A stretch of DNA of 60,585 bases from Emiliania huxleyi CCMP1516 (taxonomy: Eukaryota): assembly GCF_000372725.1 (NCBI RefSeq), contig NW_005201551.1, positions 93,167-153,751 of the forward strand, read 5' to 3'. The stretch's first letter is position 1. Each line of letters starts with the position of its first letter. The position numbers were made by a program, and so were the translations under genes. Positions 26,801 through 32,800 of the stretch are shown here, piece after piece. The notes under the pieces are model-generated. The model saw only the letters and a list, made by a program, of their open reading frames with translations, had not been told where the DNA came from and did not search any database.

Positions 26801-29800
26801 AAGAAACCGCAGGCTAACCAAGAACTCACCCGGCCCCCATCGCGAGAGGCGGACGGAGCAGGACCGCGCGTCGAGGGGCGAGGTCGGCGACCTGCATAAG
26901 TAATGAAGCGATCTCCGCAAGTAGTCTCCGTTTAACTCAGCGGCGCGGTCGGCGACCTGGGCGGCTGGTGCGAGTACCGCGCCGAGAAGCGCTCCGTGTT
27001 TGGGTCTGTCTGCACGGCCGAGTAGGCGATCGCGCCGAGCGCCTGGTCCCAGACCGTGGTAGTGAGACGAGACTGTCTCTTCTGGCGCTGCGCGCCGGTC
27101 TGTGAGAGGGAGGGGCGCGAGCCCTGCCTGAAGGGCACGGCGGCGAGGGGTGTGAAGTGCCACTGTGCTGTCGTCGCCGTCTCTCCCTTCTCGACGGTCT
27201 GTGCTCGTGCGTCTTTGGCCCGCGGCTGTGTGGTTGCGTGAAGCGTCGCTGTGCTGTCGTGCGATTCCGGGCTGTGCTGGTGTGCGAGGAGCCGCCGTCC
27301 CCGCGGCGCGGCGGAGTGCGCTGAGATCGGAGGAGGTGTGGCCGAGATCGGCCGAGATTGCAGGAGGTGCGCCTGTGGTTGATTAAAGGGAGACTGCTTG
27401 ACTACAGGGAGATTACATCATTAAGCGCCTGGTTGCCCGCCCTGCGCTTAAGGAAAGGGAGGCTGCTTGATTACAGGGAGATTACATCATTAAGCGCCTG
27501 GTTGCCCGCCCTGCGCTTAAGGAAAGGGAGGCTGCTTAACTACAGGGAGATTACATCATTAAGCGCCTGGTTGGCCGCCCTGCGCTTAAGGAAAGGGAGA
27601 CTGCTTGATTACAGGGAGGATTACATCATTAAGCGCCTGGTTGCCCGCCCTGCGCTTAAGGAAAGGGAGACTGCTTGATTACAGGGAGGATTACATCATT
27701 AAGCGCCTGGTTGCCCGCCCTGCGCTTAAGGAAAGGGAGGCTGCTTGATTACAGGGAGGATTACATCATTAAGCGCCTGGTTGCCCGCCCTGCGCTTAAG
27801 GAAAGGGAGGCTGCTTGATTACAGGGAGGATTACATCATTAAGCGCCTGGTTGCCCGCCCTGCGCTTAAGGAAAGGGAGGCTGCTTGATTACAGGGAGAT
27901 TACATCATTAAGCGCCTGGTTGCCCGCCCTGCGCTTAAGGAAAGGGAGACTGCTTAATTACAGGGAGATTACATCATTAAGCGCCTGGTTGCCCGCCCTG
28001 CGCGGCGCCTTCTCGCTCCCCTTCTTGTCGAGGTTGCCTCTCCGCCCCGCCAAGCCCGCCGCCCGAATCGTCGCCTCCGCCTTGGAGAAGCGATCGCGCG
28101 GCCCGCCGCCGCCTAGTGAAGCAACTCGTACTCGCTTAGTGATTCACTCAAGGGAGGAGATCGCGAGGAACCGCCGCCGCCGCCCTCGCTGCCGCCCGCC
28201 GCGCGCAGTGCGACCGGGCTGCCCCCGCCGATGGCGGCGTGGAGCTGCGCCTGAATGAGCATTCCATCAACGTGCGGTTCATCAGCTGCTCGTCCATTGC
28301 CCAACTCGTCCGCGGCGTGCAGCTGCGCCTCCGCCTTCGCCGCCTCCTCCCGCTTCAGCGCAAGGAGCCGCTCCCTTGCCTGCGCCAGCACCGCCTCGTC
28401 CGACCGCTGGCTCGCCCACCTCCGTAATCAAGCAGAAACCTCGTCTAATCTCGTGGAATCTCGCCTGATCTCGCCTACTCTCATCCGCCCGCTGGCTCGC
28501 CCACCTCCGCCGCTGCCGCGCCGCCGAGTACGCCGCAAGCTCGCCGTCGCCTCCGCCTGATCAATGAACCCTGATTAGTTAATCATTAAGCTAAATGACG
28601 CGCCGCCGAGCTCGCCGCAAGCTTGCCTCCGCCTCCGTGCGCGTCCTCTGGCGGCAGCAGCTCCAGCCGCACCCGGAGCCTGAAGATCGATTGCGCGCAG
28701 CATTGGTGATTAGGACTGCGGCCACCGCTCGTCTCTCAAGACGCTGACGTGCATCGAGATAGGGGGAGATACGGGGAGATACGGGGGTAGGGAGAGATAC
28801 GGGGAGACACGGGGAGATAAGGGATAGATAGAGGGAGATAGGGGGAGATGGGGGGAGATACGGGGAGATAGGGGGAGATAGGGGGAGATAGGGGGAGATA
28901 GGGGGAGATAGGGGAGATAGGGGGAGATAGGGGGAGATAGGGGGGGGTTCCCGCTTCTAGAGCCCCGGAGCCGTCCCGCCGAGCTCACCGCCACGCCGGC
29001 AGGCCGGGCGACATCAGTGGGGGGGGTGAGGAGGAGGGGGCGGTCGAGGTCGGCGAAGCGGAGCGGGTAGTCGACGAGGCTGTCGAGCGGGAGCAGCGTC
29101 TCGCCGATCACGTCGTCGCTGGAGAGCGTGTCGCCATCGAGCACGAGAAAGTGAAGCACCTGTGTGGTTGTCCGTCCGTCAGTGCTACACACGCCCCTGG
29201 CACGGACGACGGGGCACACGCACTCGCGGAACACACACGGGGCGGTGTGTGTGTTCTCAGGGAAGGGCATCGCCACAGACAGAAATAGTCAGAGGGGCAG
29301 CCGGGTGGGGATCCCCGCTCACGGCCTGGGTTGTTGTTAATTTGAACTAATTAGGGCGCCAGCAGCAAGGGGTGGGAATGGTTGTTAATGAATCAACTGA
29401 CACGTGATTAACAAGCGATGGCCAGAGTGTCGAGGAAGCGCAGCACCTGCTCCAGCGAGGTGCGTGTGCTGTGAATAGCAGCTGTGAATAGCAGCTGTGA
29501 ATAGCAGCTGTGAATAGCAGCTGTGAATAGCACCTGCTCCAGCGAGGTGACGCGGAGCGAGAACTCCTCGTGCCTGTCCACAGCAGAGGGTGTGAAGAGA
29601 CGCTGTTCACACCCCATCGCGGGGCGAGGACTGCCTCGCGCCATAGCGGCGCGGTCGAGCGCGGCACCACGCGCGTACGCGCCACCTCGTCGCTGCCCCC
29701 GAGGTACACCTAAGGTAAGGTAAGGTACGGTCAACTTCTCCACACACACACAGGGGGGGGGGGGGGGGCATCGCGTCTCCACGTCTAGACGACAGGAGCC

Positions 29801-32800
29801 CCGCGGCATCACAAGTGCAAGGGCCCAGTGCGCGTGGGTGAGGTGTGTGAGTGTGTAGACCTGCACGTACGCGTCGTTGGTGCCACCAGCGTCCCTCGCC
29901 TGTTCACAGCAGCGGGTGTGAAGAGGCGCTGTTCACACCCGTTGGTGCCGCCCGCGTCCCTCGCCTGCAGAAGCCAAAAGCGTCTCACACCAAAGAAATA
30001 CGTGCGCGGAGTGCCACCCATCTCCCTCGCCTGCAGAAACGAAGTGCAACTGCGAAAAAAGAACTCCGTGCGGGGCGTGCCACCCCTCTCCCTCGCCGTC
30101 AGATCGGTCGCCGCCTCGACAAGAACCCGCAAGGTTGCGACGGCGGGGGGGCGGGGGGCGGCGAGGGAGAGGGTGTGGAGCCGAAAGACGCCGGCGCCGC
30201 GCCGGCCCCACCTGGTCGGTCAGTTCAAGAGGCGTCACTACTTATGAATTCTTAGCACACCCGCGCTGCGCCGGCCCCACCCTAGCTTTGGGGTGGCGCG
30301 ACGGCGGTACGCGTCGGCGCCGCCGTAAGCAGCGGAGACGCGAAGCTCCTGAGGCGGGGAGGGATGGGGAGAGATGGGGAGATCGGATGGGGAGAGATGG
30401 GGAGATCGGATGGAGATGGGGAGAGAGGGGGAGAGAGGGGGGCAGAGGGGGACAGATGTGGCAAAGATGGGCAGAGAGTGGGACAGATGGGCAGAGATGG
30501 GGAGAGAAGGGGAGAGATGGGGTAGGGTAATGGGTAGGGTAATGAAAAGGGGAACGGGTAAGGGGTAGGGTTAGGGTTAGGGTAAGGGGTAGGGTAAGGG
30601 GTAGGGTAAGGGGTAGGGTTAGGGGTAGGGGTAGGGGTAGGGGTAGGGTAAGGGGTAAGGTAAGGGGTAAGGTAAGGGGTAAGGTAAGGGGTAAGGTAAG
30701 GGGTAGGGGCAAGGGGCGGGGTTAAGGTTAAGGTTGGGTTTCCTCGATGGTCAGCTCGAGCTCGGCCATCTTGCGCCACAGCACGAGCTCCTAAATGCAA
30801 TGACTCGAAAGAGTAACTGAACCGACTCAGCTCGGCCCTCTTGCGCCACAGCACGAGCTCCTCCGACGGCGTCTCGTCCTCGATCTCTCGCACGGCGTGC
30901 CAGCAGAGGACGCCCGCCGCCGCACCCACCGCAGCGCAGAGCGATCCCTACCCAAACAGCTCGCTCTGCCATTGTGCGGCAGGTTGTGGGTGGGGCGCGC
31001 GGAGTGAGCGAACGCCGCCTAATTCAGAGTGCGCCGTGTGCCCTTGTGTGCTGCAACGCGTTGTGAGTCGACGCCGCGTCCAATTCGAGGAAAGCGAGAT
31101 ATGGGGGAGATACCGGGGAGGTATGGGGAGGTATGGGGAGATATGGGGAGATCGACGCCTCGTCCAAGTCGAGAAAGGCGGAGGCTGCGCCGCCCTCGCC
31201 CCCTCCCGCGTCCGCCCACCGTTCCTCGCACAAATCCCAGAGCGCGTGCCTAGGAACACTCACTCATTCTTAACCTCCATGCGCGTCCGCCCACCGCCCC
31301 TCTCGCACAACTCCCAGAGCGCGCGCCCGCCCTTGCCGCCGCCGCCGCCGCCCCTTCCGCCGCCGCCGCGCTTGCCGCCGCGTCCGCCCGTGCCGCCCGC
31401 CTCGCCGGCAAACACCTCCGCCATCCTCGCCGCCGCTACCTCGTTGTCCTCGCCAGCTGCCGGCAGACCTAGCGCCGCCGCCGCCGCCGCCGCCGCCCCC
31501 GCGGCGGCGGCGGCGAAGCCAGGCGCCCCTCCCCCCGCGGTGCCGGCGGCGAGGGCGGCGAGGAGGGGCGCGGCGTCCCCCGTGTCCTGCCGCCAGGGAA
31601 ACCACTCCGGTTAGCTCAATTAGTCAAGATCACTACGAAATACTCCCCGTGTACTGCCGCGAGAGAAGCTCATTGAGTTCGTTTCGCTGATTGAGTAGTT
31701 AATTAATCAATCCCCGTGTCCTGCCGGGAGAGAAGCCAATTCAATCAGACTGAGCTTGATTTAATAAAGCTCTAGTTCGTCTCTCCTGCCGCGAGAGGAG
31801 CTCCTCGAGCAGCCGCACGCTCAGCGGCGCCGCCGACGCCCAATCCTACGTCAGCAAATCAATTCAAATGACGATGTGGGCCGGTGAACTCACTAATACC
31901 GTTGGTTGGAGAGACGGCGGAGTCCGTGTCCTCTCGGGCGCTAGCTCGAACGCAAGGATACGTCTTCCGCGTCTGAAGCGTCCGATCCTCCAGCGACACG
32001 CCGGCCGCGGGGTCGGCGGCGGCGGCGGTGCGCGCAGACATCGGCAGAGCGCAGTCTGGGGCGGCGGAGGCCTCCACCGACCTCTCGGCCTGCCTGTGCC
32101 CCGAAGGCGGCGGCCGCCACGGCATGCCTCGCACGTGCTTGACCAGCAGAACATACGCCTGGGCAGCCGAGATCGCCCGAGATGACGCGAGATTGCCCGA
32201 GATTGCGCCGCACGTGCCGGGCCAGCGGGAGCGACGCCTGCCGCACGCGGCGCTTGCGCAGCAGCCCGCGCCACGAGCCTACAGACAAGGCTTCATTCAT
32301 TAGACAGTGAAGCAACTGCTTACCTCCCCGCGCCACGAGCTGCGGACTCGGGATGTGAACGAATTACTTGTCAATGAATCTCCCCATGTCGTCAGTTGGC
32401 ACTTAACTAAAGATTAATTACTTAGTCCCTGCCACGAGCCTGCAGACTCTTGACGCAAGTCGAGCAGCACGCACTGCAGCGCGTACCTAGTTAGCAATTG
32501 ATTCATCGCTGAGTAAATACTCAGAGTCAGAGCAGCACGCACTGCAGCGCGTACCTAATTCATGCACTTCCATTCCTGATTTGCGGCGAGGTCACTTCAC
32601 CAAGCGCGCACCGCAGCGCGTACCGCCACATGGCCGCTGCAGAGCCGCGCTTGAGGCGGGACGGCCGCTCGGACGGCGGCACTAGCGAGGGGTTGCCTAA
32701 TTAATTATTAATTAAGTACTTAATTAGTAATCACGCTAGCCGCTCCGAAGGCGGGACTAGCGAGGGGTTGCCTCGGTAGCGCGTCCAGAGGCCGAACCGC

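What the first reader, a model, noticed from the sequence alone, without database searches (positions are those of the whole stretch)
29710..29860. The same retroposon 3' end makes up a whole VPS13 intron, with its tail supplying the acceptor
Seen: this 151-nt intron in the C2 region is homologous along its length to 53018-53160. On the gene strand the (CCTTA)n tail ends ..ccttaccttAG|GTGTAC and the intron starts CAG|GTCTAC, a degenerate AGGT(C/G)TAC duplication. A third copy fills most of ABCB intron 41572-41958, with its tail ~13 nt from the acceptor. All three copies in the window are intron-associated. Inference: a SINE/LINE-type introner family whose pyrimidine-rich tail acts as a 3' splice signal.
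Basis: partly seen in the sequence, partly recalled or inferred. Interest (0 to 1): 0.78.

Follow-up and report, generated by a model that had tools for sequence, protein, structure and literature searches.

The report
Retrotransposon tails that become introns
This intron in an algal VPS13-family gene is built almost wholly from the tail end of a high-copy repeat, likely a LINE retrotransposon, and similar stubs sit at intron ends in many other genes, so such insertions would be a repeated source of new introns.

Summary
The 151-nt GT-AG stretch 29710-29860 is skipped in one RNA run. It is present with no joined form in 4 of 4 DNA-type runs, and is 83% identical to the copy at 53 kb.

The repeat is not a SINE. 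It is the 3' end of a long element whose ORF carries RNase H and a weak SET domain; reverse transcriptase was not reached. It ends in (CCTTA)n and makes variable target-site duplications.

In metagenome contigs, 39 of 102 copies end at an acceptor-like AG|GT or AG|GC, against 9% in controls. Ten are whole phase-0 introns, and two of these split a Pfam domain at adjacent profile positions.

Near-consensus copies show no such bias (4 of 38), so survival after insertion explains the pattern better than targeting. That age trend is not significant among short copies with both flanks.

Non-LTR introners are already known as a class. No listed Emiliania family matches by size, and no earlier scan note was found. 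No intron-less allele or outgroup was seen, so gain is inferred rather than shown.

The parts
29710..29860 (-). 151-nt phase-0 GT-AG intron in the C2 region of a VPS13-family gene, made of a retroelement 3' stub
   Evidence: joint skipping 151 nt; present in 4 of 4 DNA-type runs
29855..29862 (-). upstream copy of the duplicated target; holds the donor AG|GT
   Evidence: sequence; one further mismatch in other samples
29704..29711 (-). downstream copy of the duplicated target; holds the acceptor AG|GT
   Evidence: sequence
29711..29734 (-). (CCTTA)n tail with a TTGAC branch-point-like word at its start; likely polypyrimidine and branch signal
   Evidence: sequence; function inferred; family test
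29733..29842 (-). conserved 3' UTR core of the element, about 10% diverged from the family majority
29843..29856 (-). remnant of the internal (CA)n tract at which the copy is 5'-truncated
29861..29899 (-). upstream exon (ARDAGGTNDAYVQ)
29642..29709 (-). downstream exon (VYLGGSDEVA...)
53018..54489 (-). young 5'-truncated 1.47-kb copy of the parent element: ORF C-terminus, (CA)76, 3' UTR core, (CCTTA)n tail
   Evidence: 96% identical over 1250 nt to L032
53007..53017 (+). 11-bp target duplication, first copy; contains CAG|GT, a possible donor in the antisense orientation
54490..54500 (+). 11-bp target duplication, second copy; possible acceptor of an untested 1483-nt intron 53011-54493
41584..41889 (-). 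older copy (14% diverged) with (CA)80 and a (CCTCA)-type tail inside the ABCB intron
41572..41958 (-). ABCB GC-AG intron inferred from the reading frame; about 69 nt at its 5' end are not element, so likely an older intron that took the insertion
   Evidence: not tested by RNA

Best explanation
The VPS13 intron is spliced out and consists of the 3' stub of a high-copy repeat, likely a LINE-type retrotransposon whose insertion into an exon would have created the intron. Shown: the parent element is over 3 kb, with a long ORF, then a (CA)n tract, a 120-nt core and a (CCTTA)n tail; copies end at varied 5' points, often in the CA tract, and carry duplicated targets of variable length. Inferred: target-primed reverse transcription leaves 140-190-nt stubs. 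When a stub lands sense to a gene at (A)G|GT or (A)G|GC, the first copy of the target gives the donor. The tail gives pyrimidines, CTTAC branch-like words and sometimes the A of AG, and the second copy completes the acceptor, so splicing restores the exon. Inferred: insertion is not aimed at such sites; spliceable copies persist, and their tails then drift towards CTGAC, CTAAC or CTCAC. A second group of copies sits at the 3' end of older introns (ABCB copy, L008).
For: Exact 151-nt joint in RNA, no joined form in 4 DNA-type runs. 39 of 102 copies end at HAG|GY vs 60 of 665 control positions, p 1e-15; 23 of 46 short copies with both flanks. Exact repeats of 7 bp or more at the tail end in 12 of 46 vs 1.2% of permuted pairs. 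Ten of those 23 are whole introns with the donor in the repeat and open phase-0 frames on both sides. AAA profile 31-65 | 67-113 and DAO_C 77-101 | 103-126 run on across the removed stub; dTDP-glucose dehydratase halves meet within about 2 residues. Parent ORF: RNase H (E 5e-6 to 5e-5) chained by 89-95% identity to the L079 ORF; SET weak (E 0.004). Near-consensus copies at background: 4 of 38 vs 35 of 64 older, p 6e-6. CT[ACG]AC in the tail zone: 17 of 33 old acceptor copies, 1 of 19 old non-acceptor copies, 0 of 36 young (p 7e-4), also within subfamilies at equal divergence.
Against: No reverse transcriptase or endonuclease was seen; the protein walk stopped upstream of RNase H. No intron-less allele was found: all 4 DNA-type runs carry the VPS13 intron, and no outgroup DNA was available. 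The VPS13 duplication is degenerate (6-7 of 8). The RNA run with the joint is coded as another organism than the DNA runs, so an intron-less gene there is not excluded, though the two neighbouring introns are skipped in the same run. Among short copies with both flanks the age trend is not significant (1 of 7 vs 22 of 39, p 0.096; 5 of 14 vs 18 of 32, p 0.34), so copy length or assembly breaks may confound it. Splicing of the metagenome copies is inferred from frames only. Neighbouring non-element introns in this genome also have direct repeats at their ends (9 nt at the 197-nt intron).
Confidence: 0.75

Rival explanations
1. An older subfamily was a specialised introner that targeted AG|G sites in exons or at acceptors; today's active subfamily does not.
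For: One starred clade holds 18 acceptor copies among 26 rows; the label is clustered more than in shuffles (3-4 of 500); the age effect is weak once length is controlled.
Against: Acceptor copies need 22 changes on the tree, at least 6 forced by well-supported branches, and 0% of bootstrap trees give one origin; 13 old acceptor copies lie outside that subfamily; identical cores occur with and without an acceptor.
Confidence: 0.12
2. The VPS13 intron position is old; the element inserted into an existing intron and the older sequence was later lost.
For: The ABCB copy and L008/L033 do sit at the 3' end of what look like older introns; the VPS13 duplication is degenerate; the intron is fixed in 4 of 4 runs.
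Against: No non-element bases remain in the 151 nt; the same anatomy with perfect 8-18-bp exon duplications recurs in L057, L091, L094, L012 and L029.
Confidence: 0.08
3. The stubs are captured by break repair or by the local duplication process that makes direct repeats at many intron ends in this genome, not by target-primed retrotransposition.
For: Many introns in the window carry boundary-spanning duplications; reverse transcriptase not seen.
Against: Fixed 3' end with tandem tail, ragged 5' ends, repeats that start at the tail end also in non-intronic copies (53-kb copy, L044, L040, L072), and an RNase H ORF.
Confidence: 0.05

Closest known systems
Non-LTR-derived introners (Gozashti et al. 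2025, PMC12130899; e.g. Strongylocentrotus fam1, LINE/I-Jockey hit, 4 copies, co-opt both; Fulvia fulva fam3, 5 copies, co-opt 5' carry 3')
   Same: Introns of shared sequence in unrelated genes from a non-LTR element, with splice sites taken from the target duplication or partly carried
   Different: Here the introns are short 5'-truncated stubs of a long coding element, with a tandem pentamer tail at the acceptor, variable-length duplications, many non-intronic copies, and signs of tail change after insertion. The paper puts non-LTR at 5% of classified families and describes no such tail in the parts read.
Emiliania huxleyi CCMP1516 introner families in Dataset S2 of PMC12130899 (fam11, fam24, fam4)
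   Same: Likely the same or a close host (inferred); GT and GC donors, AG acceptors
   Different: Listed splice columns span about 66, 69 and 37 positions and are classed Unknown, Unknown and LTR, against 143-188 nt here. Searches for three element motifs found nothing in the supplements and the rows seen hold no sequences, so identity was judged by size and class only.
Micromonas, Aureococcus and Symbiodinium DNA-transposon introners (PMC9860276, PMC11282704, passages)
   Same: One or both splice sites co-opted from the target duplication; mRNA unchanged
   Different: Those are mostly DNA transposons with short fixed duplications and often terminal inverted repeats; this element has a polar head-to-tail structure and ragged 5' ends.
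RNase H-bearing non-LTR retrotransposons (oomycete L1, Utopia and plant Ta11 in PMC5348765, passages; I, Tad1, Dualen recalled)
   Same: RNase H followed by a Cys/His cluster read by eye in one long ORF; tandem-repeat tail
   Different: Extra SET-like domain and acidic tail; clade cannot be assigned without the reverse transcriptase. A search for Dualen with SET domain found no paper.

Membership tests
Introner (intron-generating transposable element) | Similar sequence forms whole introns in several unrelated genes | tested here: met
   VPS13 plus 10 metagenome loci with donor in the repeat and open phase-0 frames
Introner (intron-generating transposable element) | Spliced out exactly | tested here: met
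   One locus, one RNA run, exact 151-nt joint; other loci not tested
Introner (intron-generating transposable element) | Intron absent from orthologues (gain shown) | tested here: inconclusive
   Present in 4 of 4 DNA-type runs; no outgroup DNA reachable
Introner (intron-generating transposable element) | Most new insertions are spliceable (specialisation) | tested here: not met
   4 of 38 near-consensus copies at HAG|GY, equal to the 9% control
Non-LTR retrotransposon (LINE) | Fixed 3' end with tandem tail and variable 5' truncation | tested here: met
Non-LTR retrotransposon (LINE) | Variable-length target-site duplication | tested here: met
   12 of 46 with 7 bp or more vs 1.2% permuted; 11 bp at the 53-kb copy
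Non-LTR retrotransposon (LINE) | Reverse transcriptase and endonuclease in the ORF | tested here: inconclusive
SINE | Non-coding unit with a defined tRNA/7SL/5S-derived head | tested here: not met
   5' ends vary and continue into a coding ORF in long copies; no Rfam match at the gathering score over 29600-30000

The most novel reading that the evidence does not exclude
The LINE's tail is itself selected for spliceability. Read sense, (CCTTA)n is an array of branch-point words plus pyrimidines one base short of an acceptor; read antisense, (TAAGG)n is an array of AG|GTAAG donors. An autonomous, still active LINE would thus seed introns in both orientations. Its copies would form a dated series in which new introns convergently evolve consensus branch points, making intron birth and maturation directly measurable in one genome.
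Probability: 0.25. Interest if true: 0.85.

Novelty: new variant of a known kind. Interest (0 to 1): 0.62.

Why it matters
Retrotransposon-made introns are the rare and least explained class among introners (5% of classified families in PMC12130899). This family shows the likely parent, the truncation point, the target duplication and the splice signals together. It also offers young unselected and old intronic copies side by side, so one can test whether intron gain is targeted or filtered by selection, and watch splice signals improve after gain.

Tried and rejected
The viral collection had no match.

The search for a reverse transcriptase failed.

No intron-less allele was found in 4 DNA-type runs. 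Depth over the element in those runs is thousands of times the flank, but is not a copy number and was not used as one.

The frame picker chose wrong frames where flanks ran into neighbouring introns (also for VPS13); phase-0 frames were read again. The first-AG rule misses copies with an earlier AG (ABCB copy, L016, L036, L107), so acceptor counts are conservative. The first duplication finder had no control and was replaced.

The ORF interrupted by the 53-kb copy has no Pfam match. Six of the ten whole-intron loci (L015, L012, L029, L069, L075 and the upstream half of L057) and the upstream half of L111 gave no informative domain across the junction.

SINE origin was rejected. Earlier scan notes: one unrelated hit, nothing on this element. 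PMC6338049 passages gave nothing on SET domains.
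Full report
Setting. No genome was held for the window. The high GC, GC-AG introns and tandem-repeat-laden introns suggest Emiliania/Gephyrocapsa huxleyi; this name is my inference from recalled features. The only tool support is that the Atlas cluster nearest the element's RNase H region is commonest in Haptophyta.

The observation. On the minus strand 29860-29710 is 151 nt, GT to AG, between exons reading DAYVQ and VYLGG. Four neighbouring exons read as one C2-like frame. 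A nearby downstream exon hits Pfam C2 weakly (E 0.0037) and an upstream exon hits VPS13_N (E 7.9e-6). The intron matches the 53-kb copy at 83% and the ABCB copy at 73%. Of four RNA runs, X10 has a contig skipping exactly 151 nt with GT-AG ends at exon-level depth, and it also skips the neighbouring 68-nt and 197-nt introns; the other three lack exon cover there. Four DNA-type runs from four studies have contigs crossing both junctions and no joined form. They differ from the window at 29857, so the 8-bp duplication is 6 of 8 there. X10 is coded as a different organism from those runs.

The parent. The 53-kb copy continues past its (CA)76 into sequence 95-96% identical to L032 and L079 up to 54491, and has a perfect 11-bp duplication. 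It is therefore a 1.47-kb 5'-truncated insertion. L079 and L032 carry ORFs of over 960 residues, open at the 5' end, that stop just before the CA tract. Overlapping database proteins extend this ORF upstream (89% and 95% identity) into RNase H (E 4.7e-6 to 4.9e-5 in six proteins). A Cys/His cluster follows (by eye), then a weak SET match (E 0.0044; relatives 3e-5 and 4e-5). Reverse transcriptase was not reached. A fixed tandem tail, ragged 5' ends and variable duplications point to a LINE; the clade is open.

Family census. I dropped 8 duplicates and 1 chance match (L003), and 9 more lacked 60 nt of 3' flank, leaving 102. In 39 of 102 the first AG after the core lies within 45 nt and reads HAG|GY (48 of 102 for HAG|G), against 60 of 665 control positions further along the same flanks (p 1e-15). 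The base pair after AG| is GC in 25 and GT in 14, and in 25 of 39 the tail runs straight into the AG. Among 46 short copies with both flanks, 23 have this signature, and 12 have an exact repeat of 7 bp or more at the tail end against 1.2% of 2070 permuted pairs (which missed some clear cases such as L091).

Whole introns. Ten of those 23 (L091, L111, L094, L015, L057, L012, L058, L029, L069, L075) have the donor inside the duplicated target and open phase-0 frames on both sides; they are 143-188 nt. Removing the stub joins AAA profile positions 31-65 to 67-113 in L094 and DAO_C 77-101 to 103-126 in L058, with one unaligned residue accounting for each step. L091's halves meet within about two residues on dTDP-glucose dehydratase structures. 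L111's downstream half matches SPF45, and its upstream half matched nothing. In L012 and L013 the upstream copy lacks the A, so the acceptor's A comes from the tail; elsewhere A is shared by tail and target. The other 13 look like insertions at or near older acceptors (for example L008/L033 in a kinesin gene, and like the ABCB copy) or are unclear.

Targeting or filtering. Copies under 3% from the family majority show the signature in 4 of 38, equal to background; older ones in 35 of 64 (p 6e-6; at a 5% cut 10 of 51 vs 29 of 51). Against this reading, in the 46 short two-flank copies the contrast is 1 of 7 vs 22 of 39 (p 0.096) or 5 of 14 vs 18 of 32 (p 0.34), so length or assembly may contribute. 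A tree of 89 cores (122 columns, poorly resolved; the 16 copies with shorter cores left out) needs 22 label changes, at least 6 forced, though one clade is enriched (18 of 26). In the tail zone CT[ACG]AC occurs in 17 of 33 old acceptor copies, 1 of 19 old non-acceptor copies and 0 of 36 young ones (p 7e-4). The contrast holds within both subfamily types at equal mean divergence (11 of 20 vs 1 of 6; 6 of 13 vs 0 of 13). That these words resemble branch points rests on the recalled general consensus; the host's own consensus was not measured.

The 53-kb copy. Its duplication reads CCAG|GTGAATA on the + strand, so 53011-54493 has GT-AG ends with a pyrimidine-rich 3' end, and removal leaves a continuous frame. 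That frame has no Pfam match and splicing was not tested.

Literature. PMC12130899 (parts 1-2 of 7 of the text, passages, rows and part 1 of supplement 8, searches of all 14 supplements) reports non-LTR introners as 5% of classified families, with 14 occurrences of that label in Dataset S2. It lists three E. huxleyi families of other sizes and classes. PMC9860276, PMC11282704, PMC5348765 and PMC6338049 were seen as passages only; the supplements of PMC9860276 were not opened and may list further Emiliania families. Nine searches (listings) showed no paper on this element, but most subscription papers and Repbase are outside the library.

Verdict. A real, spliced intron made of a retroelement tail, and one of a family. 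It works like an introner and is best described as intron gain by a LINE-like element filtered by selection. The class is known; this anatomy and the age series appear undescribed. Gain, the element's enzyme and the selection step remain inferred.

Noticed in passing
window 29572-29613, 29897-29938, 33026-33067, 42884-42925, 58094-58129 and others: A palindromic element of about 40 nt (GTGTGAA...TTCACAC hairpin) occurs 12 times in the window at intron 3' ends, and RNA contigs show it between varied flanks. By size it may be the 45-copy 'fam4' introner of PMC12130899; not verified.
   Followed up: partly
L079:1-2904, L032:1612-4539; proteins P0079, P0081, P0102: The parent ORF carries a SET-like domain after RNase H and a chromodomain-like stretch before it (the latter by eye only), an unusual chromatin-domain cargo for a LINE.
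   Followed up: partly
window 52783-53010 and 54494-54720 (+): An ORF of unknown family with lower GC, split by the young 1.47-kb copy; removal at the duplicated AG|GT restores the frame.
   Followed up: partly
window 45052-45402 (-) and 55073-55363 (+): Two ORF ends with LFETFGG / LHETFGG motifs that recall the C-terminal endonuclease region of other non-LTR elements (recalled; no Pfam support).
   Followed up: partly
window 22000-33600 (VPS13): Many introns carry tandem duplications that span the splice site and repeat a piece of exon (for example 27385-28003, 70-bp unit x 8.9), often with AT-rich fillers.
   Followed up: no
window 34555-35061 and 38112-38618: A 507-bp inverted repeat pair at 99.4% identity enclosing about 3 kb that includes a leucine-rich-repeat-like tandem array (36307-36594); possible DNA transposon or inverted duplication.
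   Followed up: no
L025, L047, L115: Tandem copies of the element end (L025, L047) and an expanded (CCTGA)n tail (L115).
   Followed up: no
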